Position numbers and translations under genes: made by a program. Under the pieces are notes generated by a model that worked only from the letters and a program-made list of their open reading frames with translations, ran no database searches and was not told where the DNA came from. From positions 339,752 through 403,751 of the forward strand of contig DASRGG010000021.1 of NCBI GenBank assembly GCA_035651155.1: DNA of 64,000 nucleotides. Direction: 5' to 3'. The DNA is from Candidatus Limnocylindria bacterium. Its GTDB lineage: Bacteria > Chloroflexota > Limnocylindria > P2-11E. Below, piece after piece: positions 4,204-56,659 of the stretch (position 1 is its first letter; each line of letters starts with the position of its first letter).

Positions 4204-5063
4204 GCCGCATCGTCCGCGTCGCCGCCGCGCAGCTCGGTCCCTCGGGCACGAAGAGCGAGAACGCCGAGCGCATGATCGGCCTCCTCGAGCGAGCTGCGAA
4301 GCAAGGCGCGCAGATCGTGGCCTTCCCGGAGCTCAGCCTCACGCCCTACTTCTGCATCAGGAACGAGCGCGGTTATGAGCAGTACTTCGAGCCCGTCGAC
4401 AACGAGCACCTCAGGTCCGTGGCGCGCCGCGCGGGACAGCTCGGCGTGGCGACCGTCATCCCGTTCGCCGAGCGCGACGGGATCCAGCTGTTCAACTCCT
4501 GCGCCGTCTCCGACGCGACCGGCCGGCTCGTCGGCCGCTACCGCAAGATCCACATCCCCGGCGCCTTCCCGTTCCAGGACCGCGGCGCCCTGGTATTCGA
4601 GAAGCTCTACTTCACGCCGGGCAACCTCGGATACCCGGTGTTCGACCTCGGCTTCGCACGGATCGGCGTGCAGATCTGTTATGAGCGCAACTTCCCCGAG
4701 GGGTACCGCATCCTCGCGATGCGCGGCGCGGAGATCGTCTTCACACCCACGAACCTCATGCGCATCGGGAGCGTCTGGCACTCGGGCACCTGGGAACTCG
4801 TACTGCGCGCCCGCGCCTACGAAAACGGCATCTTCGTCGTCGGCGTCAACAAGGCCGGGAGGGAGTGGGACCTCGACTACGTGGGCGATTCGCTCGTGGC
4901 GCGACCGACGGACGGCGAGGTCATCGCGCGCACCGAGGCCGCGACGGACGACGTGCTGGTCGTCGAGTGCGACCTCGACGAGATCGCCGAAGCACGACGC
5001 CGCCTCCCGTTCATGCGCGACCGCCAGCCGCTCACGTACGGCCCGCTCCTCGAGCGGGAGTAG
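4200..5063 (+). CDS. Carbon-nitrogen hydrolase family protein (N-carbamoyl-D-amino-acid hydrolase-like)
   Basis: Nitrilase-superfamily catalytic triad context: FPELSLTPYF (Glu), RKIHIPG (Lys), GVQICYERNFPE (Cys). Confidence 0.8.
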   Translation: MSRIVRVAAAQLGPSGTKSENAERMIGLLERAAKQGAQIVAFPELSLTPYFCIRNERGYEQYFEPVDNEHLRSVARRAGQLGVATVIPFAERDGIQLFNSCAVSDATGRLVGRYRKIHIPGAFPFQDRGALVFEKLYFTPGNLGYPVFDLGFARIGVQICYERNFPEGYRILAMRGAEIVFTPTNLMRIGSVWHSGTWELVLRARAYENGIFVVGVNKAGREWDLDYVGDSLVARPTDGEVIARTEAATDDVLVVECDLDEIAEARRRLPFMRDRQPLTYGPLLERE

Positions 5064-5119
5064 CGCGACCCCCCCCCCGCTCAGCAAACGCGCGAAGTGA
5101 TCCGCGTGCGCCGGACGAC

Positions 5120-6103
5120 ATGACCGCCGTCGCCTCGACGAGCCGCAGCGTGCCATCGCGCGCGGATCGCATGCGTGGCACGATCTGGGGACAGTTCGTC
5201 GGCGACGCGGCGTGCGTGGGCGCGCACTGGATCTACGACCCCGAAGAGATCGCGCGCCGGTGGCCGGGGGGCCTACGCGGGTTCGAAACGCCGTGGCCCG
5301 GTCACCATCACGCGCGGCGCCGCTCCGGGGACCTGACGCACTACGGCGACATGGCGCTCCTCCTCCTCGAATCACTCGTGGAGCGGAACGGCTTCGATGC
5401 CGCCGACTTCGGTCGTCGATTCATCGAGGCGGTCGCGTCGCCCGAGTACATGGGCTACCGCGACAAAGCGATGAAGGGCACGCTCGCGCGCTACGAGGCC
5501 TACGTCGCGACACACGGTCCGGCCACCTTCGACCACCAGCAGGGGGCCGAGGACTTCGAACCCGCCACGGTGTCGCGGCTCGCTCCACTGGTCGTCGCAG
5601 GCCTGTCGGACGAGAACGTCGTCGACCGGCACACGCGCGTGACGCAGGATCACCCCCGGGCGCTCATCTACGCGCGGTACCACGCGCGCGTGCTCTGCGC
5701 GCTCGTTGACGGTCACGCGCTCGCCGACGCCTTCGCTCTCGCCACGAGCGCGCTCCCGACGGACGGATTCGGCGAGGAGCTGCGCGTGTCACTCGCGCGC
5801 GTACGGGGGCCGCTCGCCGGCGCGGACGTGACCGACGCGACGAGGACGCTCGGTCAGCACTGCCGGCTCGATCAGAGCCTGCCGGCGGCCATACACGCCG
5901 CGCTTTCGTACCCGACCGACCTGCGCGCCGCGGTCCTCGCTACGGCCCGCGCCGGTGGCGACAGCGCGGGCCGGGGGGCCATGATCGGTGCATGGCTCGG
6001 CGCGTCGCTCGGGGTCGGCGGCGTGCCGGCGGAATGGCGGACCGCGCTCGCGGCCCACGAGCGGATCGCCGCGCTCGTGGAGCGGCTCGTGGCACGCGCC
6101 TAG
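5120..6103 (+). CDS. ADP-ribosylglycohydrolase family protein
   Basis: GQFVGDAACVGAHWIYD N-terminal motif and C-terminal GGDSAGRGAMIGAWLGASLG metal-site motif of the ARH family. ATG at 5120 follows a C10 homopolymer. Confidence 0.75.
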   Translation: MTAVASTSRSVPSRADRMRGTIWGQFVGDAACVGAHWIYDPEEIARRWPGGLRGFETPWPGHHHARRRSGDLTHYGDMALLLLESLVERNGFDAADFGRRFIEAVASPEYMGYRDKAMKGTLARYEAYVATHGPATFDHQQGAEDFEPATVSRLAPLVVAGLSDENVVDRHTRVTQDHPRALIYARYHARVLCALVDGHALADAFALATSALPTDGFGEELRVSLARVRGPLAGADVTDATRTLGQHCRLDQSLPAAIHAALSYPTDLRAAVLATARAGGDSAGRGAMIGAWLGASLGVGGVPAEWRTALAAHERIAALVERLVARA

Positions 6104-10550: not shown

Positions 10551-10661
10551 GGCGCAGGCGACGGCCATGACGGCTGAGCGCTTCGGGACCGGACTGACGT
10601 GCGACGAGTAGAAGCAGCGAATGACGCAGAACCGCGAGCGCTTCGAGCGCTACGAACGTGA

Positions 10662-10979
10662 TTGCGGACAGGGATCGCGCGGTTCACGCGGCTCGAAGCG
10701 AACGCTCCACGTTGCGGTACGAGGACGCGACCGATCGCGATCGCTCTCGCGCCCGACGGGGTGCTCTCGCGTGCCGGCCTCGTCCTGGCCGGTTCGGCCC
10801 TCCTCGCGCTGTCCGCGCGTCTCGAGATCCCGCTGCCGTTCAGTCCCGTCCCGGTCACCGCGCAGACGCTCGCGGTCCTGGTCATCGGCGCGGCGCTGGG
10901 TGCCCGACTTGGTGCCGCGACCGTCACGCTCTATCTCGTCCAGCCCCTCCATGATCGTGTCCGCCCATGCGAACGCTGA
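10662..10979 (+). pseudogene. BioY-family biotin transporter fragment (truncated after ~105 codons)
   Basis: ALSARLEIPLPFSPVPVTAQTLAVLVIGAALGARLGA is the conserved BioY N-terminal core. The ORF stops after TM2-3 and no frame continues the family, so it is likely a gene remnant. Confidence 0.45.
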
Positions 10980-11117
10980 CGGGCGTTCCGGCGGTGGAGA
11001 AGTGCCGAGCGGCGGAGGGCCTCTCGTCCGCTGGTCGCGCTCGTGTAGGGCACGACAGCGCGAGAGCGGCGCCACGTCTCGGACGAAGCGGCCGGCCCGG
11101 CCTGTCATCGTAGTGCC

Positions 11118-11555
11118 GTGGACGCCGGGGCCGTCACGAGAGCGCGCGGCTATCGCTACCTCGAGCACACCGCGGACGTCGGGATCGAGGCGTGGGGACC
11201 GGATCTGCGCGCGGCGTTCGAGGAGTCGGCGATGGCGCTCGCGGCGCTGATGGTCGATCCCGCCACCGTGGAGGACCGCGAGGAGTGGCGCATCGCGATC
11301 GACGGCGGCGACCCTGGCGAGCTGCTCGTGCGCTGGCTCTCGGAGCTCATCGCGCTCGTCGACAGCGCCGGGTGCGCCTTCCGGCGCTTCGCGATCGACG
11401 TGCTCGACGGTCGGCGTCTCGAGGCACGCGCCTGGGGCGAGCGGATCGATCCCGCGCGCCATCACCCGCGCACGGCGGTCAAGGCCGCCACGTACCACGC
11501 GCTCGCGGTCGACGCCGGTCCGCCGGCGCGCGTGACCGTGATCCTCGACCTATGA
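11118..11555 (+). CDS. Archease (RtcB activator)
   Basis: YRYLEHTADVGIEAWG N-terminal archease signature; stop overlaps the rtcB start (ATGA). Confidence 0.8.
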   Translation: MDAGAVTRARGYRYLEHTADVGIEAWGPDLRAAFEESAMALAALMVDPATVEDREEWRIAIDGGDPGELLVRWLSELIALVDSAGCAFRRFAIDVLDGRRLEARAWGERIDPARHHPRTAVKAATYHALAVDAGPPARVTVILDL

Positions 11556-13006
11556 GCGATCGCATCGGGCCGCTCGAGCGGATCGACGACTTCCGATGGC
11601 GTCTCCCCGCGACATTCCGTCCGGGGATGCGCGTTCCCGGGATCGTGTACGCGGACGCTTCGATGGCGCGACGCATCGTCGACGACCGATCGCTCGAGCA
11701 AGTCGCGAACGTCGCGACGCTTCCGGGGATCGTCCGCGCGTCCCTCGCGATGCCCGACATCCACTGGGGCTACGGCTTCCCGATCGGCGGGGTCGCGGCG
11801 TTCGACGAAGAAGAGGGCGTCGTGGCGGCGGGTGGCGTCGGGTACGACATCAACTGCGGCACGCGGATCGTCCGCACCGACCTCACCGCGGCGGACGTCC
11901 GGCCGGTCATCGATCGCCTGGCCGACGCCCTCTACGGCGACGTTCCCGCGGGACTCGGATCCCGCGGAACGCGTGAGACCGACGCCGCGCTCGAACGCGC
12001 GCTCCGCGATGGAGCGCGCTGGGCCGTGGAGCTCGGCCGCGGCTGGGACGAGGACCTCACGCTCACCGAAGAGGGGGGCGCGATGCCCGGCGCCGATCCG
12101 GCCGCGGTGTCGCGGCCGGCGAAGGACCGTGGAAGGACCCAGATCGGATCGCTCGGCTCGGGCAACCACTTCCTCGAGGTCGAGACCGTCAGCGAGATCC
12201 TCGACGCGGCCGCCGCTCGCGTCATGGGCATCGACGCGATCGACCAGGTCGTCGTCTTCTTCCACTGCGGCTCGCGCGGCCTCGGCCACCAGGTGTGCAC
12301 CGACCACCTGCGGGGCATGGCGAGAGCGGCCGAGGCCCATCGCATCGCCCTCGCCGACCGGCAGCTCGCGTGCGCCCCGATCGGGTCGCCCGAAGGCCGC
12401 GCCTACCTCGCGGCGATGGCTGCGGCGGCGAACTTCGCGTGGGCGAACCGGCAATTCATCACGCACGCGATCCGGCGCGCCTTCGAGCACGTGTTCCAGC
12501 GGACGCCGGAGTCACTCGGCATGCGCCTCGTGTACGACGTGGCGCACAACATCGCCAAGACCGAGGTGCACGAGGTGGAGGGCCGTCCGCGAAGGCTCGT
12601 GGTGCACCGCAAGGGTGCGACGCGCGCGTTCCCGCCGGGGCACACCGACGTGCCGGTGCGCTACCGCGCGATCGGCCAGCCCGTGCTCATCCCAGGGGAC
12701 ATGGGACGCTACTCCTATCTTCTCGTCGGCACCGAACGCGGCATGCGCGAGACCTTCGGCTCCGCGTGTCACGGCGCCGGTCGTCTCGAGAGTCGCGGCG
12801 CGGCGAAGCGCCAGCTGTGCGGGATCGACATCGCCGAGCGCATGCGCGCGCAGGGCATAACGATCCGCGTGACGCAGCCCGGCCTGCTCGCCGAGGAGGC
12901 ATCCGAGGCCTACAAGGACGTCGCCGACGTCGTCGCGGTGTGCGAGGGCGCCGGCATCGCCAAACGGGTCGCCCGATTCCGGCCGCTCGCGGTGATCAAA
13001 GGATGA
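11552..13006 (+). CDS. rtcB: RNA-splicing ligase RtcB
   Basis: 484 aa; metal/GTP motifs DIHWGYGFPIGGV, GYDINCG, GSGNHF, HCGSRGLGH, HNIA, ACHGAGR. Confidence 0.9.
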   Translation: MSDRIGPLERIDDFRWRLPATFRPGMRVPGIVYADASMARRIVDDRSLEQVANVATLPGIVRASLAMPDIHWGYGFPIGGVAAFDEEEGVVAAGGVGYDINCGTRIVRTDLTAADVRPVIDRLADALYGDVPAGLGSRGTRETDAALERALRDGARWAVELGRGWDEDLTLTEEGGAMPGADPAAVSRPAKDRGRTQIGSLGSGNHFLEVETVSEILDAAAARVMGIDAIDQVVVFFHCGSRGLGHQVCTDHLRGMARAAEAHRIALADRQLACAPIGSPEGRAYLAAMAAAANFAWANRQFITHAIRRAFEHVFQRTPESLGMRLVYDVAHNIAKTEVHEVEGRPRRLVVHRKGATRAFPPGHTDVPVRYRAIGQPVLIPGDMGRYSYLLVGTERGMRETFGSACHGAGRLESRGAAKRQLCGIDIAERMRAQGITIRVTQPGLLAEEASEAYKDVADVVAVCEGAGIAKRVARFRPLAVIKG

Positions 13007-13206
13007 TCACCGGGACGACGAGCGCGGCGAAGCTGGCGACTCGCCCCACCTCTCGCCGCTCCCACCTGGCGCCTCGGCGCCACAGCTCGTACGCGCTCTG
13101 GCCGCCGCGGTCAGGGTGCGGCGCAGTGTTCCAGATGTTCGTGCCAGACAGAACCGCTCGTTGCCCTCAGGCCGGTCGTGCGAGGTCGCGTTGCGCGCGA
13201 AACGCC

Positions 13207-13253
13207 ACGAATCCGCTGAGGCGACGGCGGGAATCGGACCCGCGGTCGGGGTC
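13207..13253. repeat. 47-nt direct repeat of the 3' half of tRNA-Cys (att-like partial tRNA copy)
   Basis: gctgaggcgacggcgggaatcggacccgcggtcggggtcttgcagcc matches 14714-14760 (anticodon stem through 3' acceptor) at 44/47 positions. Confidence 0.7.
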
Positions 13254-13415
13254 TTGCAGCCTCGCCCTTTGCGTCTCGGTGCGTTCCGACGCGTCTGTTT
13301 GGGGCCGACTTGTGCCGTTGCGTCTCGTTGTGCTCCAGCGCGTTCGTGGCCGTTGTTGTCGAATTGTTGTCAGAACAGAAATCGTGGGACAGCGGCGTCT
13401 TGCCCTGTCCGGTGT

Positions 13416-13970
13416 CTAGTTTGCGACGAGCGCCCGCTCCCCGACGAGCTTGCGCAGGCTGTCGCGTTCGTTCGACTGCAGCTTCGGTAGCGAACGACGT
13501 TCGGCGAGCACAGCGTTAACAGCCGCGACAAAGGCGTCGTAGTGATCCTGCTCCGCGCGGCCCTCGTAGCTGTCGAACCATCGCTCGACCTCGCTCCAGC
13601 GCCAGAGCCTGTGTCCAGCGGTGACGTGTGCCGCCGCCGGAAAACCGCCGGGACCACGCCTGCCCTCGACGAGCAGGCTCACGCTCTCCTTGCTGCGACC
13701 CCGACGCGTCGCGATGTCCGCCATGAACACAAGATCATCTGGCTCGAGCTCGATGACGGGGACCTCGGGTAGGACCCGCTCGAGGTCGAGGATCGCGCTT
13801 ACGACCGCCTCGGCGAAGCTCGGCGCCTCGCGATCAAAGCCGATGTACACGCGGCCGTCGCGCTGGCTCAGGTTCGCGTCTGGCAAGTGGTCGTAGATCA
13901 GCTTGACTTGCGCGTCGCTAAGCTCCGGCGCGCCGAGCAGCAGCGTGAAACTGAATTCATCTCGACTCAT
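13416..13970 (-). CDS. Putative antitoxin (HicB-like partner) with C-terminal MerR/AlpA-type HTH
   Basis: 185 aa, MSRDEFSF start; C-terminal DLVFMADIATRRGRSKESVSLL...GHRLWRWSEVERWF is an HTH_17-type DNA-binding motif. ATG overlaps the stop of the upstream small toxin-like ORF (ATGA). Confidence 0.4.
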   Translation of the reverse strand: MSRDEFSFTLLLGAPELSDAQVKLIYDHLPDANLSQRDGRVYIGFDREAPSFAEAVVSAILDLERVLPEVPVIELEPDDLVFMADIATRRGRSKESVSLLVEGRRGPGGFPAAAHVTAGHRLWRWSEVERWFDSYEGRAEQDHYDAFVAAVNAVLAERRSLPKLQSNERDSLRKLVGERALVAN

Positions 13971-14203
13971 CGCGCTTCCTCCTTGCTCGATCCTCGGTGC
14001 GGGCACTTGAGCACCTCACGAAGCAGCCAGCGCGCGTGCCCGCCGGGATTCTCCGGCGTTCCGTTCACGGGAAGGCTGCAACCGCCGCGTTGCCGGTGAC
14101 CGCAGAGCAGCACGCCCCAGTGGCCGCCGGGCTCAAGACGCCACCAGGGGTCTTTAAGAATCTCCTCGAGGGCCTCGCGGACCTCCTTCTTCGGGTGCTT
14201 CAC
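13967..14203 (-). CDS. Putative HicA/YcfA-like toxin (mRNA interferase family)
   Basis: 78 aa; spacing of KDPWWRLEPGGHWGVLLCGHRQ...LLREVLK resembles the GW..v.qkGSH...lkqaGl pattern of the HicA family. Upstream gene of the overlapping pair. Weak call. Confidence 0.4.
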   Translation of the reverse strand: MKHPKKEVREALEEILKDPWWRLEPGGHWGVLLCGHRQRGGCSLPVNGTPENPGGHARWLLREVLKCPHRGSSKEEAR

Positions 14204-14222
14204 GAGCAGGGTAGCCTAAGCC

Positions 14223-14238
14223 GTTGACCGCCGTCAAC
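14223..14238. promoter_or_regulatory. Perfect palindrome GTTGAC-cgcc-GTCAAC upstream of the toxin-antitoxin pair (candidate operator overlapping a TTGAC -35-like hexamer)
   Basis: 6-bp inverted repeat with 4-nt spacer about 20 nt upstream of the first gene of the TA-like operon. Confidence 0.35.
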
Positions 14239-14335
14239 AGCAGGCGACATGCCAGCGTTCGCGCATGGCCGCGAGGCCGCAGTCGACTCCCGACGGTGAA
14301 GGGCACCGACGCGGTCGAGGTGTTCCGCCTTCCGC

Positions 14336-14704
14336 GCCTACCACAACCAGCGCCGTCCGCACCGCGCGCTCTCCGGCAGGACGCCGCTTCTCGCCTGGAA
14401 CGCGCGCATCAAAGCGAGACCGCAGACGCCGGCGAGTGAGCCCGTCCACTTCCGCGTCTGGCAGGACACCGTCGATCAGTGGGGACACGTCACCGTGCGT
14501 TATCTGAGCGTGCTGCGCCACATCCACGTCGGTCGCCGGCACACCCGCGAACGCATCCGCCTGCTCCTCGCGGGACCGCGCGCGCATCGCGTTCGCGAGG
14601 ACGGCACGCTTCTGCCGGCGCTAACGCTGGAGCGCGATCGCCTCTACTTCGGCAATTCGCCGCGCGTCCACAATGACGCGAGACAGGCATCCGGGATGTC
14701 CTGA
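14336..14704 (+). pseudogene. Transposase/integrase C-terminal remnant (rve-type; IS481/IS21-like)
   Basis: AYHNQRRPHRALSGRTP (the Y-N-x-x-RPH-x-xLgg-tP end of the rve catalytic core) followed by a VHFRVWQDTVDQWGHVTVRYLSV...EDGTLLP C-terminal module. The upstream frames 14224-14335 are broken. Confidence 0.5.
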
Positions 14705-14717
14705 GACATCACAGCTG

Positions 14718-14789
14718 AGGCGACGGCGGGAATCGAACCCGCGGTCGGGGTTTTGCAGACCCCTGCCTTAACCACTTGGCTACGTCGCC
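14718..14789 (-). tRNA. tRNA-Cys (anticodon GCA)
   Basis: GGCGACG/CGTCGCC acceptor stem, anticodon stem GGGGT/ACCCC with loop CTGCAAA, T-arm GCGGG-TTCGATT-CCCGC; 72 nt, CCA not encoded. Confidence 0.85.
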
Positions 14790-14897
14790 TAGGAGCCGCG
14801 CCGGACCGAGGTCGTGGAGCGACCGACGGCGCCCGCCGGTCACCCAAGTCTACGGAACTGACGCGCCTTTGGTCATCCGCCTGCATACTGCCTCCCC

Positions 14898-15641
14898 GTG
14901 CTGCCCATCGGCGACGACGACCAGCGAGCCGGGCTCCCCATCGTCAACATCACGATCATCGCGATCAACGTCCTCGTGTTCGTGCTGCTTCAGCTCCCCA
15001 GCGACGCCTTCACGATGGGCTTCAGCGTCATCCCGAAGGAGATCACGCACGGCATCGACCTCGTCGGGCCTCAGCCGGTCATGCTCCCCGACGGGACCAC
15101 CGACGTGATCAACGAGGCGCCCGGCCCGAGTCCGATCTGGCTCACCCTGTTCACGTCGCTGTTCATGCACGGAGGGTGGACGCACATCGGCGGCAACATG
15201 CTGTTCCTCTTCATCTTCGGCGACAACGTCGAGCGCCTCTTCGGATCCCTCAGGTACCTGGTCTTCTACCTCATCTGCGGGATCGCGGCGGATCTCGCCC
15301 AGATCGCGTCGAACCCCGACTCGGTGATCCCGAGCCTCGGGGCCTCGGGCGCCATCAGCGGGGTGCTCGCGGCGTACGTGCTCTTCTTCCCGCAGAACCC
15401 GGTGCGCGTGCTCCTCAGCTTCGGGTATTTCGTCCGCATCACGATGGTGCCGGCGTTCGTGATGATCGGTCTCTGGATCGTCATCCAGTTCGTGAACGGG
15501 CTGGGCGCGATCGCGCTGAGCGAGCAGACCGGGGGCGTCGCGTACTGGGCGCACATCGGCGGATTCGCGGCGGGGCTGCTGCTGGCGCTCCTGCTGCGTT
15601 CGTTCGTCGGCCGAGGGCCGACGCCGCGCTTCGCCGTCTAG
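14898..15641 (+). CDS. Rhomboid family intramembrane serine protease
   Basis: Six-TM protein with GASGAISG (GxSG catalytic Ser) and AHIGG (catalytic His). Confidence 0.85.
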   Translation: MLPIGDDDQRAGLPIVNITIIAINVLVFVLLQLPSDAFTMGFSVIPKEITHGIDLVGPQPVMLPDGTTDVINEAPGPSPIWLTLFTSLFMHGGWTHIGGNMLFLFIFGDNVERLFGSLRYLVFYLICGIAADLAQIASNPDSVIPSLGASGAISGVLAAYVLFFPQNPVRVLLSFGYFVRITMVPAFVMIGLWIVIQFVNGLGAIALSEQTGGVAYWAHIGGFAAGLLLALLLRSFVGRGPTPRFAV

Positions 15642-28184: not shown

Positions 28185-31100
28185 TTACGGGGTCGGGACG
28201 CCGAGCAGGATGCCCTCGCTCGCGCCGGCGGCGTTGTCGATGCCGACCACGAGCAGGCCGAGCGCGGGCGTCCGCGCCCATTCGGCCGCGTCGATCGAGA
28301 CAGGCTGGTCGACCGCGGCGCCCGGCGCCACCGCGTCGAAGGCGCCGGTGCTGATGGCCGGGGTGAAGGCGTTGAACGTGGCCGACGTGGTGCCGATGTC
28401 GTCGGTGCCGTCGCGGCCCGCGAAGACGTCGATGTGGTAGCTGAACCGCGGGCTGGCCGCGCTGAGGCCGAGCCGGTTGCTGAAGACCGGGATGAACACC
28501 GTGCTGTTGTCGGTCGCGATGGCGGTGCTCGTCAGCACGAGCGAGCCGGTCGTGAGGTTGACGACGCCGGAAAGGAACACGCCGTCGCGCGAGCCGGTCC
28601 GCACGAGGCCGTTGTCCGCGCCGAACACCAGGAAGTCGTCGACGCCGTCGCCGTTGGTGTCGACGAGGATGTCGTACTCGTTCACCGCGGCGTTGGAGAA
28701 CCGCTCCCAGGTATTGACCGCGAAGACGATCAGGCGACGGGTACCGGACGGGAACGACTGGGCGCCGGCCGCGCGCAGGTCGGTCTGGCCGTGTCCGTCG
28801 TTCGGCGAGCTGATGCCCCACGCGTAGAAGTCGGCGGTGCCGGTAAAGGCGCCGCCCGCGTTGGTGAGGTGGACCGTGCCGCTCGGGTTCGACGGGCCGA
28901 ATGGCGACGAGAGCGTCGCCGCGGTGTTCGAGAGGCCGCGCGGAACGAGGTAATAGGGGACGCGAAGGGCGATGCCGTTGTTGGCCCCGTTCACGGGCGT
29001 GAGCTCGATGAAGCCCGAAGCCTCGCGGAACGCGTTCGCGTTCCCGGTCGTGGCGCCGGGCACGGTGAGGGTCACGTCGATGGACGCGGACCGCTCGCCT
29101 GAAAGACGGATCGAGCTGCGGGACAGGCTGACCGTGTGCGGCGCGCCGCTCTGCATGGTCGCCGCGGCGGTGAAGCGCGGATCGCCCGCGTCCTCCCCGT
29201 CCTCGCCGCGGAGCGCCTGCACCCTGATCCGCTTCGTCGCGGTGTAGGTCCCGAGGAACTCGTTGTACCCGAAGGACAGGCTGGCCGTGCCGCGGTCGCC
29301 CGTCGCGATCGCGCGGGTGTGCGTGGCCGCGTAGGCCTGGACGAGTCCCGCGCCGCTGGTCCGTGTCCTGTATCCGGCGATCGCCGTGGCGGAGGCCGTG
29401 TTCATGATCGCGGCCTTGACCCGCTCGGCCACGCCGTTGCCGTCCTCGTCGTCATCGCGACGCCCCTGCTTCTGGGCCTGGACGACGAGGGCCGCGACGC
29501 CGCTCACGTGCGGCGCCGCCATGGACGTACCGGAGAGACGCTCGCCCTGGTTGCCGGTGCCGACCGCGGTCGAAAGGGTCGAGACGCCGGGGGCTGCGAC
29601 GTCGGGCTTCAGGCTGCTGTCGCGCAAGCGCGGGCCGCCCGAGGAGAAGCTCGCGATCGCGCTGAAGGCGGTGTTCGTGAGGGGACTGTTCGTCAGCGTG
29701 ACGGTCCCGCCGTCGCGGGTCTTGATCGCGGCTCCGTCGGTGGAGCGGACGCCCAGGAACGGGATCGTGACGGCGTAGACCTCGCCCGTGTCCGGGTTCC
29801 CGGTGATCGGACCCTCGAAGGGCGGGTAGCTCGTCGCGTTGTTGACCATGAGCACGGCCGCGGCGCCGTGCTGCTGGCCGAAGACGGCGCGCGCGACGCG
29901 CGCGCAGGTGCCGCGCTGCGTCACGACGAGCATGCCGGCGGTGCCGGCGTACTCGTTCGGATCGCAGCCGAGGCTGATCGCGGTGTGCGCGGCGTCGGAC
30001 CAGAGGACCTTCACCGGCAGCGTCAGGCCGTCGGCGAACGTCGCGCCGTTGGCGTTGATCGACGCGAGCGTCGTGGTCCCGAGGGCGGTCCCACCGGAGA
30101 ACGCGAGGGAAGCGCCGGGGAAAGTCTTCGTCGCGTCGTTCGCCGCGACGCTGATCGTGCGGGTCGCCGTGGAGGGCGATCCCGTGATGTACGGCGCAGG
30201 GCCGGAGTTGCCGGCCGAGGCCACGACGACGACGCCCGAGCGGGCGGCGTTGTCGGACGCGACGGCCGAGGGGTCGTCCGGGCGACCGAAGGACGAGCCG
30301 AGCGACATGTTGATGACGTCCATGTCGTGATCGACGGCCCAGTCGATGGCGTCGACGGTGACGTCGGTCGCGCCGTTGCAGCCGAAGACGCGGATCGCGT
30401 AGAGGTCGGCGAGGGGCGCGACGCCGGGTCCGATGCGGAAGGTGCTGAACGGGAGCGACGTGTCATACGTGCCCCGGTAGGTCTGGCCCGATGCGGTCAC
30501 GCCGAATCCCGCGACGGTCCCGGCGACGTGGCTGCCGTGGCCGTTGCAGTCGAGCGGGTTCGGGTCGGGCTTCGGGGTCGCGATGTTCGGGTCGGGCGAG
30601 CTCGGGTTGTAGGCGTCGCCGACGAGGTCGATGCCGCCCTTCACCTTCGGCGCGTGCTTGCCGAAGAGCGCGGGATCCGCGGGCAGCGCCTCGTTCGCGT
30701 GCGCGTCGACGTAGGCCGCGGGTGTGCCGGGGCCGCCGAAGTTCGCGTGCGTGTAGTCGATGCCCGTGTCGATGACGCCGACCTTGATGCGCTCGCCGCG
30801 CAGGCCCTTCTTGCCTTCCCAGACCTGCGGCGCGCCGATGTAGGGAACGCTCGTCGAGTTGTCGCGCTCCATCCGCTGGACCGGCACGACCGCCTCGACG
30901 TTCGGGAGCGAGGCGAGGGCGCCGAGCGACCGGCGCGCGATCTCGACCTTGATGCCGTTGTAGGCCGACTGGTATTGGCCGAGGACCCGGCCGCCCGCGG
31001 CGCCGATGCTCGGGAGCAGCGGATCCTGCTTCGCCCTGAGGCTGGCCTTGACGCTGTCGCGCTCGGCGTCCGAGATCTGCTTTCCGGGCTTGGACGCCTT

Positions 31101-54445: not shown

Positions 54446-56341
54446 CTATTTCGCTGACCGCACGCCGCGCATGCGCTCTGCCGTGCGCATCGCCAGCGCC
54501 ATCACGGTCGTCATCGGATTCACGCCCGAGGCGCTCGGGAACGCGCTCGCGTCGGTCACGTAAAGACCGCGCACGCCCCAGACCCGGCCGTCGGGGTCGG
54601 CGACCGAGGACGCGCGATCCCGCCCGATGCGGCAGCTCGACATCTGATGTGCCGAGAAGAGCGTCACCCGGTTGGCGGCGATACCGCGCCGGCCGATCTC
54701 CGCCACGAGATCGTCGACCCGCGTCGCCTCGAGGTCGAGCGGCGGTGTGTGCAGAGTGAAGATGCGCCGCGCGCCGGCGGCGGCGTGGATCCGCGCGGCC
54801 TCGACCATCCCGCGCTCGAGGAGTGCGCGCTCGCTCGCGCCATTCACGTAGCTGACGAGCGGCTCCCCGTCGCGGTCGACCGTCACGCGCCCTGCATCGC
54901 GATCGCGCACGATCGCGATGAACGGCGCGACGTGGCGCGCTTCGGTCGCGCGACCCTGGTGCGCCGCCGCGCCCCACCAGGGGAACGAGGCCGCCAGGAT
55001 GCCCGGATACGCCTGCGGGACCTCGAGGCGGAAGCCGTGCGCGCCGTCGATCTCGGCGAACGCGCTCACGACGACCGACTGCGGCACGCCCGACCACACA
55101 CCGCCGAGGTCCTCGTCGTACACGCCGGAGGTGACGGACACCGGGTGCAGGTGCAGGCCGCGACCGGCCTGTCCGGACGCGATCCCCGATCGCAGCAGCA
55201 GCGCCGGTGAGTGGATCGACCCGCCCCCGAGGGCGATGAGCGGCGCGCGCACTCTCAGCTCACCGCCCTCGACCCGTGCGGTCACGCCGGTCACGGCTCC
55301 GCGCGCGGACTCGATGCGGCGCGCGTCGGTGCCGGCGAGGATCTCGGCGCCCGCGGCCGAGGCATCGGCGAGGAACGTGCGCGGCGCCGACTGCTTCGCG
55401 CCGCGACGGCAGCCGAGCGTGCAGTGCCCGCAGTCGCCGCAGCCCTTCACGTTGCGCGCGATCGTCGCCGGCTCGAGTCCGAGCGCGCTCGCGCCCCGCT
55501 CGAGGGCGGCGTTCGCGCCGTTGCGCGCGCTCTCGTCGGTGTCGACGTCGGACCGCGCCTCGACCGCCGCGTAGCACGCCGCGAGATCGTCGACGCCCGC
55601 GCGCCGCCACTCCTCGGCGACCGCCGGGCTGATGCGCAGCGAGGTGTTCCAGTTGACGACGGTACCGCCGCCGACCGCCGATCCCGCGAGCAGGGCGATG
55701 GCGCGATCCTGCGTCGCGGCGATGCCGCGATCGACGAAGAGCGCCGCGTAGCCCGCGAGCTCGCGCGAGTCAAAGGAGTCCTCGAACCGCGGCCGAGCGC
55801 GCTCGAGGATGACCACGCGCTTGCCGGCGCCCGCGAGCGTAGCGGCGGCGACGGCCCCGCCCGCGCCCGAGCCGATGACGCAGACGTCAGCCTCGATGAC
55901 CTCGCCGGCGCGCGGCACGCGCACGCGGAGCGTCGATGGCGACATGGGCGGCAGCGGCGGACGCGCGTAGCCCATCGCCGCGGCGTAGGGCGAGCCGTCG
56001 ACGCCATACGCATAGAGCAGGGTGAGGCGCTTCATGACCTGGAACGCGCGGCGCTTCAGCGCGAGCGGACTGGTCGCCCACCGCTTGAGATACGCCTCGC
56101 GCTCGTGGTGCGCGAGCGAGGAGAAGCGCGACGGACGGCCGGTGAGGATGAGATTGAGCGGCGGCGATTCGATGGTGTCGAGGAGCTGATCGAGCTCGGC
56201 GAGGAGCGCGGGCCGCCCGAGCGCGGTGACCTCGGCCCGGAGCAGCTCGGGCACGCCGAGCGCGGATGCGGAGGGAAGGCCATCGCCGCCGGGTACGAAG
56301 GTGTCGCAGATCGCGGCGAGCGCGCGTGCGCGGTCCGGCAC
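54446..56341 (-). CDS. GMC family FAD-dependent oxidoreductase with N-terminal gluconate-2-dehydrogenase-subunit-3-like extension
   Basis: ADVCVIGSGAGGAVAA (FAD GxGxxG), GMC core and C-terminal active-site region (HQMSSCRIG, GLYVTDASAFPSASGVNP). The first ~140 aa (ICDTFVPGGDGLPSASALGVPEL) resemble the small subunit family fused in frame. Confidence 0.75.
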   Translation of the reverse strand: MPDRARALAAICDTFVPGGDGLPSASALGVPELLRAEVTALGRPALLAELDQLLDTIESPPLNLILTGRPSRFSSLAHHEREAYLKRWATSPLALKRRAFQVMKRLTLLYAYGVDGSPYAAAMGYARPPLPPMSPSTLRVRVPRAGEVIEADVCVIGSGAGGAVAAATLAGAGKRVVILERARPRFEDSFDSRELAGYAALFVDRGIAATQDRAIALLAGSAVGGGTVVNWNTSLRISPAVAEEWRRAGVDDLAACYAAVEARSDVDTDESARNGANAALERGASALGLEPATIARNVKGCGDCGHCTLGCRRGAKQSAPRTFLADASAAGAEILAGTDARRIESARGAVTGVTARVEGGELRVRAPLIALGGGSIHSPALLLRSGIASGQAGRGLHLHPVSVTSGVYDEDLGGVWSGVPQSVVVSAFAEIDGAHGFRLEVPQAYPGILAASFPWWGAAAHQGRATEARHVAPFIAIVRDRDAGRVTVDRDGEPLVSYVNGASERALLERGMVEAARIHAAAGARRIFTLHTPPLDLEATRVDDLVAEIGRRGIAANRVTLFSAHQMSSCRIGRDRASSVADPDGRVWGVRGLYVTDASAFPSASGVNPMTTVMALAMRTAERMRGVRSAK

Positions 56342-56586: not shown

Positions 56587-56659
56587 AGCGGAAGACGGGT
56601 CTCGAACCCGCGACCTCGTCCTTGGCAAGGACGCGTTCTACCAACTGAACTACTTCCGC
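56587..56659 (-). tRNA. tRNA-Gly (anticodon GCC)
   Basis: GCGGAAG/CTTCCGC acceptor, anticodon stem CGTCC/GGACG with loop TTGCCAA, T-arm GCGGG-TTCGAGA-CCCGT. Confidence 0.85.

What the first reader, a model, noticed from the sequence alone, without database searches (positions are those of the whole stretch)
13207..14789. tRNA-Cys with a 47-nt direct repeat of its 3' half 1.5 kb away, bracketing a toxin-antitoxin pair and a transposase remnant
The segment from the anticodon stem to the 3' end of tRNA-Cys (14714-14760) recurs at 13207-13253 with 44/47 identity. This is the attL/attR signature of a tyrosine-integrase element inserted into the tRNA 3' end. The bracketed 1.5 kb holds only a HicA/HicB-like overlapping pair with a palindromic operator and the C-terminal stump of an rve-type transposase. 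It looks like an integrative element that has decayed to its addiction module.
Basis: seen in the sequence. Interest (0 to 1): 0.6.

Follow-up and report, generated by a model that had tools for sequence, protein, structure and literature searches.

The report
Decayed island remnant at tRNA-Cys
A 1.45-kb leftover of a mobile island sits in a tRNA-Cys gene; that is ordinary, but the transposase stump beside the tRNA belongs to an insertion-sequence lineage that appears to home precisely to the 3' ends of tRNA genes.

Summary
The repeat is real. Window 13215-13259 matches 14714-14758 at 43/45, with background identity on both sides and no other copy in 64 kb. It runs from the anticodon loop of tRNA-Cys to 4 nt past the discriminator. 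The distal copy is followed by the flank that follows intact tRNA-Cys in the closest relative (18/24), so it is the displaced native fragment. A more distant relative carries a tyrosine integrase 76 nt from this tRNA. Best reading: an integrase-less island remnant, CIME-like.

The cargo is an overlapping, apparently autoregulated gene pair. It matches the untested PADLOC candidate PDC-M06, not HicA/HicB by profile or fold search. Its GTTGAC-N4-GTCAAC palindrome is conserved in homologous loci.

The transposase stump is IS481-family. Its tip abuts the repeat for a reason. All six homologue loci examined, like the window, place the same tip 3-5 nt after the discriminator of a different tRNA or tmRNA gene. 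The tip lies 15-17 nt from the T-loop box. One near-complete copy has a perfect 16-bp target duplication of the tRNA end.

The finding itself is ordinary. The tRNA-homing IS lineage is the interesting by-product.

The parts
13194..13214 (-). Native downstream flank of tRNA-Cys. It now follows the displaced fragment instead of the gene.
   Evidence: BLAST alignments of relatives run through this stretch: L092 covers 13194-13259 and L094 covers 13197-13259. The 24 nt after ...CGCCTC match L092 at 18/24, against 8/24 for the flank after the intact tRNA (alignment A1).
13215..13259 (-). Displaced 3' fragment of tRNA-Cys, running from the anticodon loop to the discriminator plus 4 nt. This is the attR-type core.
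   Evidence: It is 43/45 identical to 14714-14758. Rfam does not call it a tRNA. It shares the T-loop variant GGGTCCGATTCCC with the intact tRNA-Cys of the closest relative L092.
13260..13415 (.). Non-coding element arm next to the displaced fragment. It holds clustered same-strand GCGTCT motifs at 13271, 13291, 13320 and 13395, and a 29-nt direct repeat at 13266-13294 / 13315-13343. These are candidate arm-type recombinase or excisionase sites (inference).
   Evidence: This is the only 156-nt stretch in the 64 kb with 4 or more GCGTCT; the mean is 0.10. TTGCGTCTCG occurs only here, twice. The repeat is family D12.
13416..13970 (-). ORF-B, 184 aa. It has an N-terminal beta-alpha-beta-beta-alpha-beta domain, an AlpA-like winged helix-turn-helix and a C-terminal helical hairpin. 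It is the presumed DNA-binding regulator or neutraliser of the pair.
   Evidence: PADLOC PDC-M06B at 2.2e-18. phrog_2620 'excisionase and transcriptional regulator' at 5.6e-19. 398 homologues. AlphaFold2 model with pLDDT 90.9. Weak match to the AlpA structure 8c3t. No HicB in Pfam, NCBIfam or Foldseek.
13967..14203 (-). ORF-A, 78 aa. A small alpha-beta-beta-beta-alpha protein with conserved His and Cys (H3, W21, H28, C34, C42, T49, P50, C67). It is the presumed effector or toxin of the pair.
   Evidence: PADLOC PDC-M06A at 4.9e-10. phrog_5923. 229 representative clusters (alignment A4). AlphaFold2 model with pLDDT 89. A homologue lies directly upstream of ORF-B homologues in L172, L178 and L005.
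14224..14239 (.). Perfect palindrome GTTGAC-GGCG-GTCAAC, 21 nt upstream of the ORF-A start codon. It overlaps a TTGAC -35-like hexamer and is the presumed operator.
   Evidence: The same half-sites, with different 4-nt spacers, lie at the same distance upstream of ORF-A homologues in L172 and L005. A degenerate version is present in L178.
14300..14704 (+). C-terminal stump (134 codons, stop at 14702-14704) of an IS481-family DDE transposase. The N-terminal two-thirds are missing.
   Evidence: Translation. Pfam rve_3 at 3e-4 and NCBIfam transpos_IS481 at 0.009, covering the last 25 profile positions only. tblastn hit to an annotated IS481 family transposase. 65% identity to residues 227-349 of the near-complete copy in L192.
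14675..14713 (+). Right terminal repeat of the IS (...GATGTCCTGAGACATCACA). Its tip at 14713 abuts the repeat, 4 nt after the tRNA discriminator.
   Evidence: The terminal 19 nt are identical in L179, L180, L182 and L192, and related in L183 and L191. Each lies next to a tRNA or tmRNA 3' end.
14714..14758 (-). Proximal copy of the repeat. It is the 3' part of the working tRNA-Cys plus 4 nt, an attL-type core inferred to be element-borne.
   Evidence: It is followed by IS DNA, not by the native flank.
14718..14789 (-). Intact tRNA-Cys(GCA).
   Evidence: ARAGORN. Rfam RF00005 at 67.9 bits, full length. Linkage of tRNA-Cys to the rhomboid gene is conserved in relatives.

Best explanation
The segment 13260-14713 is the 1.45-kb remnant of a genomic island.

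Proposed history:
1. The island integrated into tRNA-Cys by tyrosine-integrase recombination, with the crossover in the anticodon loop. It supplied its own copy of the tRNA 3' part, now 14714-14758. It displaced the native 3' part together with its downstream flank, now 13259-13194 read on the minus strand.
2. An IS481-family insertion sequence then landed between the regenerated tRNA and the integrase-side arm of the island. This lineage inserts about 4 nt after the discriminator of tRNA and tmRNA genes.
3. One or more deletions removed the 5' two-thirds of the IS together with the integrase and whatever else the island carried.

What is left:
- the two att cores;
- the far arm with clustered short repeats;
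- the IS stump;
- one intact two-gene operon.

The operon (ORF-A and ORF-B, PADLOC candidate PDC-M06) has its own promoter. A conserved palindrome overlaps that promoter. ORF-B's winged helix presumably binds it to autoregulate, in the way a toxin-antitoxin-like or defence cassette does. That would explain why the operon outlived the rest.

The remnant cannot move by itself. It fits the definition of a cis-mobilizable element (CIME) only at the level of the cores, because the integrase-side arm has been replaced.

Shown: the repeat, its limits, the native flank, the gene families, the IS target pattern.
Inferred: the order of events, the loss of the integrase by IS-associated deletion, and the functions of ORF-A, ORF-B and the arm repeats.
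For: Repeat and att anatomy:
- The repeat is significant and sharply bounded.
- It runs from the anticodon loop through the tRNA end, in direct orientation downstream of the gene. This is the regenerated-target plus displaced-fragment arrangement that defines tRNA islands (Islander paper, PMC4383910).
- The flank after the distal copy (AGCGGATTCGTGGCGTTTCGCGCG) matches the flank after the intact tRNA-Cys of the closest relative L092 at 18/24. It also matches L103 (17), L094 (16) and L095 (15). The flank after the window's intact tRNA does not match, scoring 8-12.
- The distal copy shares the T-loop variant TCCGA with L092's tRNA.
- A relative (L122) carries a Phage_integrase gene (PF00589, 3.8e-12) ending 76 nt from the tRNA-Cys 3' end, followed by a non-native flank.
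- G+C is 63-67% inside the segment and 70-73% in the left flank.

Cargo:
- The cargo family occurs elsewhere in unrelated chromosomal contexts: between relA and a peptidase gene in L172, and also in L178 and L005.
- The operator palindrome is conserved.

IS position:
- The position of the IS tip is explained by 7 of 7 loci having the tip 3-5 nt after a tRNA or tmRNA discriminator.
- A near-complete copy has a 16-bp target duplication of the tRNA end.

CIME definition: PMC5704250.
Against: - No integrase or integrase fragment is left in the segment.
- No relative was found carrying the same island intact.
- The match to an empty site covers only about 21-24 nt. Beyond that, relatives do not have RtcB next to tRNA-Cys, so the wider left flank is not syntenic.
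- The lower G+C is shared by the right flank, so it is weak evidence.
- The shared T-loop variant is a single site.
- All copies of this locus found in four samples are 100% identical, so no polymorphic empty site was seen.
- The IS tip lies exactly at the edge of the identity block. This also invites an IS-based explanation (rival 1).
Confidence: 0.75

Rival explanations
1. The 45-bp direct repeat is an unusually long target-site duplication made by the IS481-like element itself. That element would have carried the gene pair as a passenger. No tyrosine integrase was ever involved.
For: The IS right tip abuts the repeat exactly. The lineage is specific for tRNA ends and does duplicate tRNA 3'-terminal sequence: 16 bp in L191 and 13 nt preserved in L115. 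IS481, IS1202 and IS481EU elements are reported to make target duplications of discrete lengths, about 5, 15 and 25 bp (PMC10045372). 45 bp would continue that roughly 10-bp series.
Against: No left inverted repeat lies next to the distal copy or anywhere in 13260-14300; the best alignments are no better than shuffles. The distal copy continues as tRNA sequence for 29 nt past the 16-nt point at which the IS left end would begin. The longest duplication reported for these families in the papers read is 24-29 bp. The inner edge of the block lies in the anticodon loop, a usual integrase crossover site (established knowledge: Williams 2002, Nucleic Acids Res 30:866). Four other loci of the lineage show no tRNA-half repeat, although their left ends are missing.
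Confidence: 0.08
2. The distal copy is the decayed remnant of a second, tandem tRNA-Cys gene or of a local segmental duplication. The DNA between the copies arrived by unrelated insertions.
For: The distal copy carries two substitutions, one in the conserved T-loop. Relatives show that the region downstream of tRNA-Cys is rearranged often.
Against: Identity falls to background exactly at the anticodon loop, with no trace of the 5' half. The native downstream flank follows the distal copy and not the working gene. A tandem gene model predicts the opposite: the distal gene would carry a flank of its own and the proximal gene would be followed by spacer DNA. Relatives have a single tRNA-Cys here.
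Confidence: 0.05
3. The cargo pair is a genuine, very divergent HicA/HicB toxin-antitoxin system.
For: The small gene comes first, with a 4-nt overlap with the larger gene. The larger protein carries a DNA-binding domain. A palindromic operator is conserved. ORF-A's predicted topology, alpha-beta-beta-beta-alpha, is that of the dsRBD-like HicA fold (the fold comparison is from established knowledge). In L005 ORF-A carries a stop codon while ORF-B is intact, which is the decay order expected for a toxin.
Against: Neither protein hits HicA or HicB in Pfam or NCBIfam. None of 83 family members hits HicA. Profile searches of PDB sequences find no HicA or HicB. Foldseek against the PDB gives nothing at E<=1e-3 for either model. 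In BFVD a 'HICA protein' appears only at rank 30, with E=1 and TM 0.35. ORF-B's N-terminal domain is beta-alpha-beta-beta-alpha-beta, not the beta-beta-beta-alpha-beta of HicB. The conserved Cys residues have no HicA counterpart.
Confidence: 0.1

Closest known systems
tRNA-integrated genomic islands of the tyrosine-integrase type, as mapped by Islander
   Same: There is an intact target tRNA plus a displaced 3' fragment in direct orientation. The identity block runs from the anticodon loop to the gene end. Foreign cargo lies between the copies. The native flank lies beyond the displaced fragment.
   Different: There is no integrase, so Islander-type criteria would not call it. It is only 1.45 kb. 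The integrase-side arm has been replaced by an IS stump.
[quoted passage not shown]
   Same: Both att cores are retained at 96% identity. No recombination or transfer genes remain. It is a small remnant at a tRNA 3' end.
   Different: Descent from a conjugative or mobilizable element is unknown. One arm is lost, so mobilisation in cis or in trans is doubtful. It comes from an uncultured high-G+C soil bacterium, not a Firmicute.
PADLOC phage defence candidate PDC-M06 (Payne et al., bioRxiv 10.1101/2024.01.29.577857)
   Same: Both proteins match the A and B models, and the genes are adjacent and co-oriented.
   Different: PDC systems were proposed from being embedded in BREX, DISARM or type I RM loci, and are untested. 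Here the pair sits alone in an island remnant.
HicA/HicB type II toxin-antitoxin systems
   Same: Gene order, overlap and sizes are similar. The second protein has a DNA-binding domain, there is an operator palindrome, and the small protein has an alpha-beta-beta-beta-alpha topology.
   Different: There is no detectable sequence, profile or Foldseek similarity. The larger protein's N-terminal fold is different. The DNA-binding domain is an AlpA-like winged helix, not RHH or Xre. The Cys/His motif is conserved.
Target-specific IS of the IS481/IS1202 clade, for example ISAjo2-type IS inserted 5 bp from the XerC side of dif sites (PMC10132070)
   Same: A single DDE transposase, TGT...ACA-type ends, fixed orientation and fixed distance from a conserved chromosomal site. 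Target duplications fall in the 15-17-bp class.
   Different: The target here is the 3' end of tRNA and tmRNA genes. The tip lies 15-17 nt from the T-loop box. The duplication regenerates the last 12 nt of the tRNA.
Eukaryotic tRNA-targeting transposons (Dada DNA transposons, PMC3706591; Dictyostelium TRE elements)
   Same: Mobile elements that use multicopy small-RNA genes as safe havens.
   Different: These are eukaryotic, with unrelated transposases or retroelements and different insertion geometry.

Membership tests
tRNA-integrated genomic island (tyrosine-integrase type) | Intact tRNA gene plus a displaced 3' fragment in direct orientation downstream of it | tested here: met
   43/45 identity between 13215-13259 and 14714-14758, with only two copies in the window.
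tRNA-integrated genomic island (tyrosine-integrase type) | Identity block starts in the anticodon loop or T-loop and runs to or past the 3' end of the gene | tested here: met
   The block starts at the CTGCA of the anticodon loop and ends 4 nt after the discriminator.
tRNA-integrated genomic island (tyrosine-integrase type) | Native flank lies beyond the displaced fragment, with an unoccupied site in relatives | tested here: met
   L092's intact tRNA-Cys is followed by a flank matching window 13214-13191 at 18/24. L103, L094 and L095 match at 15-17/24. The match covers only about 21-24 nt, and wider synteny is absent.
tRNA-integrated genomic island (tyrosine-integrase type) | Integrase gene inside the island | tested here: not met
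   There is no recombinase ORF or fragment in 13260-14713. A tyrosine integrase is present at this tRNA only in relative L122.
CIME (cis-mobilizable element) | attL and attR retained, integration and transfer genes lost | tested here: met
   Both cores are present at 96% identity and no integration or transfer genes remain. The definition comes from PMC5704250.
CIME (cis-mobilizable element) | Derived from an ICE or IME and mobilisable by a related incoming element | not testable with these tools
   No parent element was found, and the integrase-side arm has been replaced by the IS stump.
HicA/HicB toxin-antitoxin | Toxin matches the HicA family (Pfam HicA_toxin) or the HicA fold | tested here: not met
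HicA/HicB toxin-antitoxin | Antitoxin has the HicB N-terminal fold and family match | tested here: not met
   No HicB family hit. The model shows a beta-alpha-beta-beta-alpha-beta N-terminal domain. Foldseek finds no HicB.
HicA/HicB toxin-antitoxin | Small gene upstream and overlapping a larger gene whose product has a DNA-binding domain; autoregulated operon | tested here: met
   ATGA overlap. A winged helix in ORF-B. A conserved operator-like palindrome. Autoregulation itself was not tested.
PADLOC PDC-M06 | Adjacent co-oriented genes matching the PDC-M06A and PDC-M06B models | tested here: met
   ORF-A matches PDC-M06A at 4.9e-10 and ORF-B matches PDC-M06B at 2.2e-18. The candidate is listed as CAS_00046 with 497 instances.
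PADLOC PDC-M06 | Protects against phage | not testable with these tools
   The source paper lists the 145 PDC systems as untested candidates.
IS481 family insertion sequence | rve-type DDE transposase with an IS481-type N-terminal HTH or leucine zipper | tested here: met
   The stump matches the rve_3 and transpos_IS481 C-terminal ends only. Homologues carry PF13683. An annotated IS481 family transposase is hit. The L115 fragment has HTH_23 and LZ_Tnp_IS481. Near-complete copies exist in L192 and L191. In the window itself only the C-terminal third is present.
IS481 family insertion sequence | TGT...ACA termini with inverted repeats and a short target duplication (2-15 bp in ISfinder; about 15 bp for a subgroup) | tested here: met
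   In L191 the IS spans 4253-5528, runs TGTG...ACA, and has a perfect 16-bp duplication. Duplication length classes are given in PMC10045372. This cannot be tested in the window because the left end is deleted.

The most novel reading that the evidence does not exclude
The stump belongs to an undescribed lineage of IS481-family insertion sequences that home to the 3' ends of tRNA and tmRNA genes. The transposase appears to use the conserved T-loop box as a ruler, since the tip always lies 15-17 nt from it. It cuts at the T-stem/acceptor border and 4 nt past the discriminator. It duplicates those 16 bp, so the tRNA gene is regenerated next to the right end. This would be a bacterial DDE counterpart of eukaryotic tRNA-targeting transposons. 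It would also be a second, integrase-independent way in which tRNA genes collect mobile DNA and short tRNA-end repeats.
Probability: 0.4. Interest if true: 0.7.

Novelty: new member of a known kind. Interest (0 to 1): 0.42.

Why it matters
The att-flanked remnant is an everyday product of island decay. Its main value is as a clean example.
- It shows that integrase-less remnants escape island finders that require an integrase.
- It shows that a two-gene PDC-M06 cassette can be the last survivor of an island. That fits either addictive or defensive selection, and it gives a natural minimal context for testing this untested candidate system.

The by-product matters more. If the IS481-like lineage truly targets tRNA and tmRNA 3' ends with a 16-bp duplication, three things follow.
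- Short tRNA-end direct repeats in genomes are not always integrase footprints.
- tRNA-adjacent 'integrase core' gene fragments in metagenome annotations have a specific explanation.
- A single-protein transposase with sequence- or structure-guided site specificity would be available for mechanistic study.

Tried and rejected
1. Genome-collection scan with RtcB to find an empty site. It was of no use.
2. Exact-protein look-ups of RtcB and the rhomboid protein. They returned only 100%-identical copies of the same locus. Contig breaks near the repeat were judged uninformative, because tRNA sequences are shared between species in metagenome assembly graphs.
3. Searched relatives for RtcB, ORF-A, ORF-B or the stump next to tRNA-Cys. 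None was found.
4. Looked for an IS left end in 13260-14300. A TGTCAGAACA match at 13368 seen by eye is no better than shuffles, so I rejected the idea that the pair lies inside a complete transposon.
5. Looked for tRNA-half repeats at the other IS loci. None was found apart from the 16-bp duplication in L191. A resemblance seen by eye in L183 was weak, with 13 of 500 shuffles reaching its score.
6. Two scans of viral contigs with the IS tip sequence gave only chance matches, with no tRNA or transposase nearby.
8. Consensus promoter and terminator scans found nothing in 13000-14900.
9. Literature searches for a tRNA-targeting IS481-type element found none. The library is incomplete, so this does not prove novelty.
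Full report
**Observation**

ARAGORN finds tRNA-Cys(GCA) at 14717-14789 on the minus strand. Rfam places it at 14718-14789 with 67.9 bits, full length. The repeat finder reports one 45-nt direct repeat, 13215-13259 against 14714-14758, at 43/45.

With up to three mismatches the 45-mer occurs only at these two places in the 64 kb. It occurs in none of 100 dinucleotide-preserving shuffles. A 20-nt core also has only these two copies. In-register identity is 43/45 inside the block, 9/40 just to its left and 10/41 just to its right. Background is 11.9 +/- 3.2 per 41.

So the repeat is real, sharply bounded, and not part of a repeat family. The 44/47 count is reproduced with 13215-13261. On the tRNA strand the block starts at the CTGCA of the anticodon loop and ends 4 nt after the discriminator base.

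**Source**

The window is part of a 141-kb metagenome contig (ENA ERZ27279688 k141_1465674). Short contigs from three other data sets are 100% identical across this locus. No polymorphic empty site was seen. The organism is an uncultured high-G+C bacterium. The nearest RtcB in the genome collection is only 63% identical.

**Which copy is native?**

A metagenome scan with the neighbouring rhomboid protein gave relatives at 60-82% identity. In ten of these, tRNA-Cys sits just upstream of the rhomboid gene, as in the window.

I read the 24 nt after ...CGCCTC on the tRNA strand:
- The window's distal copy is followed by AGCGGATTCGTGGCGTTTCGCGCG.
- The intact tRNA-Cys of the closest relative, L092 (82%), is followed by AGAATTCGTTGGCGTTTTCGCGCG, an 18/24 match.
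- L103, L094 and L095 score 15-17.
- The DNA after the window's working tRNA (AGCTGTGATGTCTCAGGACATCCC) scores only 8-12.

The distal copy also shares the T-loop variant GGGTCCGATTCCC with L092's tRNA. The distal copy is therefore the original 3' part of the gene with its original downstream flank. The 3' part of today's gene came in with the inserted DNA.

This is the arrangement by which tRNA islands are defined: a regenerated target and a displaced fragment marking the island ends (PMC4383910). The empty-site evidence covers only about 21-24 nt. Further left, relatives have no RtcB.

A more distant relative, L122, has a 389-aa Phage_integrase protein (PF00589, 3.8e-12) ending 76 nt from the tRNA-Cys 3' end. 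It is followed by a non-native flank. Tyrosine-integrase elements therefore do use this tRNA in this group of bacteria.

G+C is 63-67% inside the segment and 70-73% to its left. The right flank is also low, so this is weak support.

**Cargo**

Two minus-strand ORFs overlap by ATGA: ORF-A (78 aa, 14203-13967) and ORF-B (184 aa, 13970-13416). Neither matches HicA or HicB, or any toxin-antitoxin family, in Pfam or NCBIfam.

Both match the two components of the PADLOC candidate PDC-M06, A at 4.9e-10 and B at 2.2e-18. PDC systems are 145 untested 'phage defence candidates'. They were proposed because homologues are embedded inside BREX, DISARM or type I RM loci (bioRxiv 10.1101/2024.01.29.577857).

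ORF-B:
- It matches phrog_2620 'excisionase and transcriptional regulator' at 5.6e-19.
- It has 398 homologues.
- Its AlphaFold2 model (pLDDT 90.9) shows an N-terminal beta-alpha-beta-beta-alpha-beta domain, a winged helix-turn-helix and a helical hairpin.
- The only PDB sequence hint is an AlpA-family protein, 8c3t, at E=0.22.
- Foldseek against the PDB gives nothing at E<=1e-3 and no HicB.

ORF-A:
- It belongs to a family of 229 representative clusters.
- Nearly invariant residues are H3, W21, H28, C34, C42, T49, P50, A57 and C67.
- Its model (pLDDT 89) is alpha-beta-beta-beta-alpha.
- That is the topology of HicA, but Foldseek finds no HicA.
- BFVD's best matches are uncharacterised phage proteins with TM 0.67-0.69. 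A 'HICA protein' appears only at rank 30 with E=1.
- None of 83 family members hits Pfam HicA.

The pair is conserved as a pair. ORF-A homologues lie directly upstream of ORF-B homologues in L172, L178 and L005. Gene callers usually miss them. In L172 the pair sits between relA and a peptidase gene, with no mobile-element genes nearby. In L005 ORF-A has an internal stop while ORF-B is intact.

The 16-bp palindrome GTTGAC-N4-GTCAAC at 14224-14239 recurs in L172 and L005. The half-sites are the same, the spacers differ, and the distance upstream of ORF-A is the same. It is degenerate in L178. That is what an operator looks like, and it overlaps a TTGAC -35-like hexamer.

My reading is an autoregulated, toxin-antitoxin-like or defence cassette. 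The mechanism is inferred, not shown.

**Element arm**

Between ORF-B and the displaced fragment (13260-13415) the hexamer GCGTCT occurs four times on one strand. No other 156-nt stretch of the window has four; the mean is 0.10. TTGCGTCTCG occurs only here, twice. These could be arm-type binding sites for the lost integrase or for an excisionase. This is inference.

**The transposase stump and why it touches the repeat**

The plus-strand frame 14300-14704 encodes the last 134 residues of an rve-type transposase, with stops upstream. Three lines of evidence place it in the IS481 family:
- It matches only the C-terminal ends of rve_3 (3e-4) and NCBIfam transpos_IS481 (0.009).
- It hits an annotated IS481 family transposase on an Arthrobacter plasmid at 32.5% identity, 1e-10.
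- It is 65% identical to residues 227-349 of a near-complete copy in L192.

Its terminal sequence ...GATGTCCTGAGACATCACA ends at 14713, immediately next to the repeat.

I looked up six of its eight database homologues. Every one lies in the same orientation against the 3' end of a tRNA-type gene on the opposite strand:

| Locus | Neighbouring gene |
|---|---|
| L179 | tRNA-Tyr |
| L180 | tRNA-Leu(TAG) |
| L182 | tRNA-Leu(CAA) |
| L183 | tRNA-Asn |
| L191 | tRNA-Leu(GAG) |
| L192 | 3' end of a tmRNA gene (Rfam RF00023, partial, E=2.8e-6) |

Using Rfam ends, the IS tip is 3-5 nt (usually 4) after the discriminator in all seven loci. It is 16 nt from the T-loop box GAWTYGAA in five loci, 17 in one and 15 in one.

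L191 holds a near-complete copy with a frameshifted transposase, 4253-5528, running TGTG...ACA. It is flanked by a perfect 16-bp direct repeat, CCTATGCGCTCGAGTG. That repeat is the last 12 nt of the tRNA plus the next 4 nt (0 of 500 shuffles reach the score).

In relative L115, an IS left end with an IS481-type HTH/leucine-zipper fragment lies about 375 nt from the tRNA-Cys 3' end; its transposase fragment ends 85 nt short of it. The left end is preceded by 13 nt of the tRNA-Cys 3' end.

A 15-17-bp duplication class and TGT...ACA ends are known for IS481 relatives (PMC10045372). Fixed-distance targeting of dif sites is known for the related IS1202 family (PMC10132070). I found no report of tRNA targeting, but the searchable library is incomplete.

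**Putting it together**

The IS tip abuts the att block because this IS inserts at that position relative to any tRNA end. Since it lies next to the regenerated gene and not next to the displaced fragment, it arrived after the island did.

It sits where islands usually keep their integrase, as L122 does. The IS has lost its own 5' two-thirds and left end. I therefore infer that a deletion starting in the IS removed the integrase side of the island.

**Rivals**

1. The 45-bp repeat is a giant target duplication made by the IS. Against this: there is no left end next to the distal copy, that copy continues as tRNA for 29 nt past the 16-nt point, and the longest duplications reported are 24-29 bp. 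Confidence 0.08.
2. The distal copy is a decayed tandem tRNA gene. Against this: identity stops exactly at the anticodon loop, and the native flank follows the distal copy. Confidence 0.05.

**Comparison with known things**

The structure meets the defining anatomy of a tRNA island except for the integrase. It meets the definition of a CIME (attL and attR kept, integration and transfer genes lost; PMC5704250) at the level of the cores. One arm is replaced, however, and a conjugative ancestry is unknown.

A second example of the same kind turned up in L005. There a 41-nt copy of the tRNA-Gln 3' half lies 1876 nt downstream of the gene.

**Verdict**

The att/decayed-island reading is well supported. 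The HicAB label is not supported and is replaced by PDC-M06. The finding is an ordinary new member of a known kind. The tRNA-end-homing IS481 lineage is the part worth following up.

Noticed in passing
window 14675-14713; loci L179 (~1000-1014), L180 (1762-1776), L182 (2071-2085), L183 (1252-1270), L191 (4253-5528), L192 (1051-1065), L115 (3383-3675): An IS481-family lineage has its right tip 3-5 nt after the discriminator of a tRNA or tmRNA gene in 7 of 7 loci, at seven different genes and always convergent with the gene. The tip is 15-17 nt from the T-loop box. L191 shows a perfect 16-bp target duplication made of the last 12 nt of the tRNA plus 4 nt. I found no description of this in the searchable literature.
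   Followed up: partly
window 14300; L180 1318; L183 878: Three of the seven tRNA-adjacent IS copies are cut down to C-terminal stumps of similar size (134, 149 and 127 codons) and are bounded by unrelated DNA. Why truncation recurs in this way is unexplained.
   Followed up: no
L005 6778-6818 and 8654-8694: tRNA-Gln has a 41-nt, 93%-identical direct repeat of its 3' half 1876 nt downstream. The repeats bracket a GrpB/acetyltransferase gene and no integrase. This is another small att-flanked remnant. The PDC-M06 pair of that contig lies about 1.1 kb beyond it, and its ORF-A is broken by a stop codon.
   Followed up: no
L182 464-1387: A second, different IS481-type transposase gene (307 aa; HTH, rve, rve_3) is inserted into the tRNA-Leu-adjacent IS copy and truncates it. 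This is a nested IS arrangement at a tRNA end.
   Followed up: no
window 10621-11117: ORF 10662-10979 matches only the first 34 of 140 positions of Pfam BioY (4.6e-8). The public gene call uses another frame (209 aa, no domains). It is probably a bioY pseudogene just upstream of the archease-RtcB pair.
   Followed up: partly
window 11118-13006: An archease-RtcB (RNA ligase) operon ends 209 nt from the displaced tRNA fragment and converges on it. Relatives with the same tRNA-Cys/rhomboid arrangement have no RtcB there, so this side of the locus is not syntenic.
   Followed up: partly
window 28855-28946 and 55454-55532: ARAGORN calls a 92-nt tRNA-Glu and a 79-nt tRNA-Ala with the anticodon at position 37. 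Rfam at the gathering threshold confirms only tRNA-Cys (14718-14789) and tRNA-Gly (56587-56659). The other two are probably false positives.
   Followed up: partly
L178 6583-6930: There is a tandem duplication of about 171 nt (62-nt and 115-nt blocks, 97-100% identical) just downstream of the ORF-B homologue. A HicB-like gene lies about 1.6 kb away in the same locus.
   Followed up: no
L001, L005, L172-L178 (upstream of each ORF-B homologue): The public gene calls miss ORF-A in every locus examined, leaving a 350-450-nt 'intergenic' gap. A word-indexed protein search found only 3 homologues, whereas an exhaustive HMMER search found 229 clusters. This small protein family is badly under-annotated.
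   Followed up: partly
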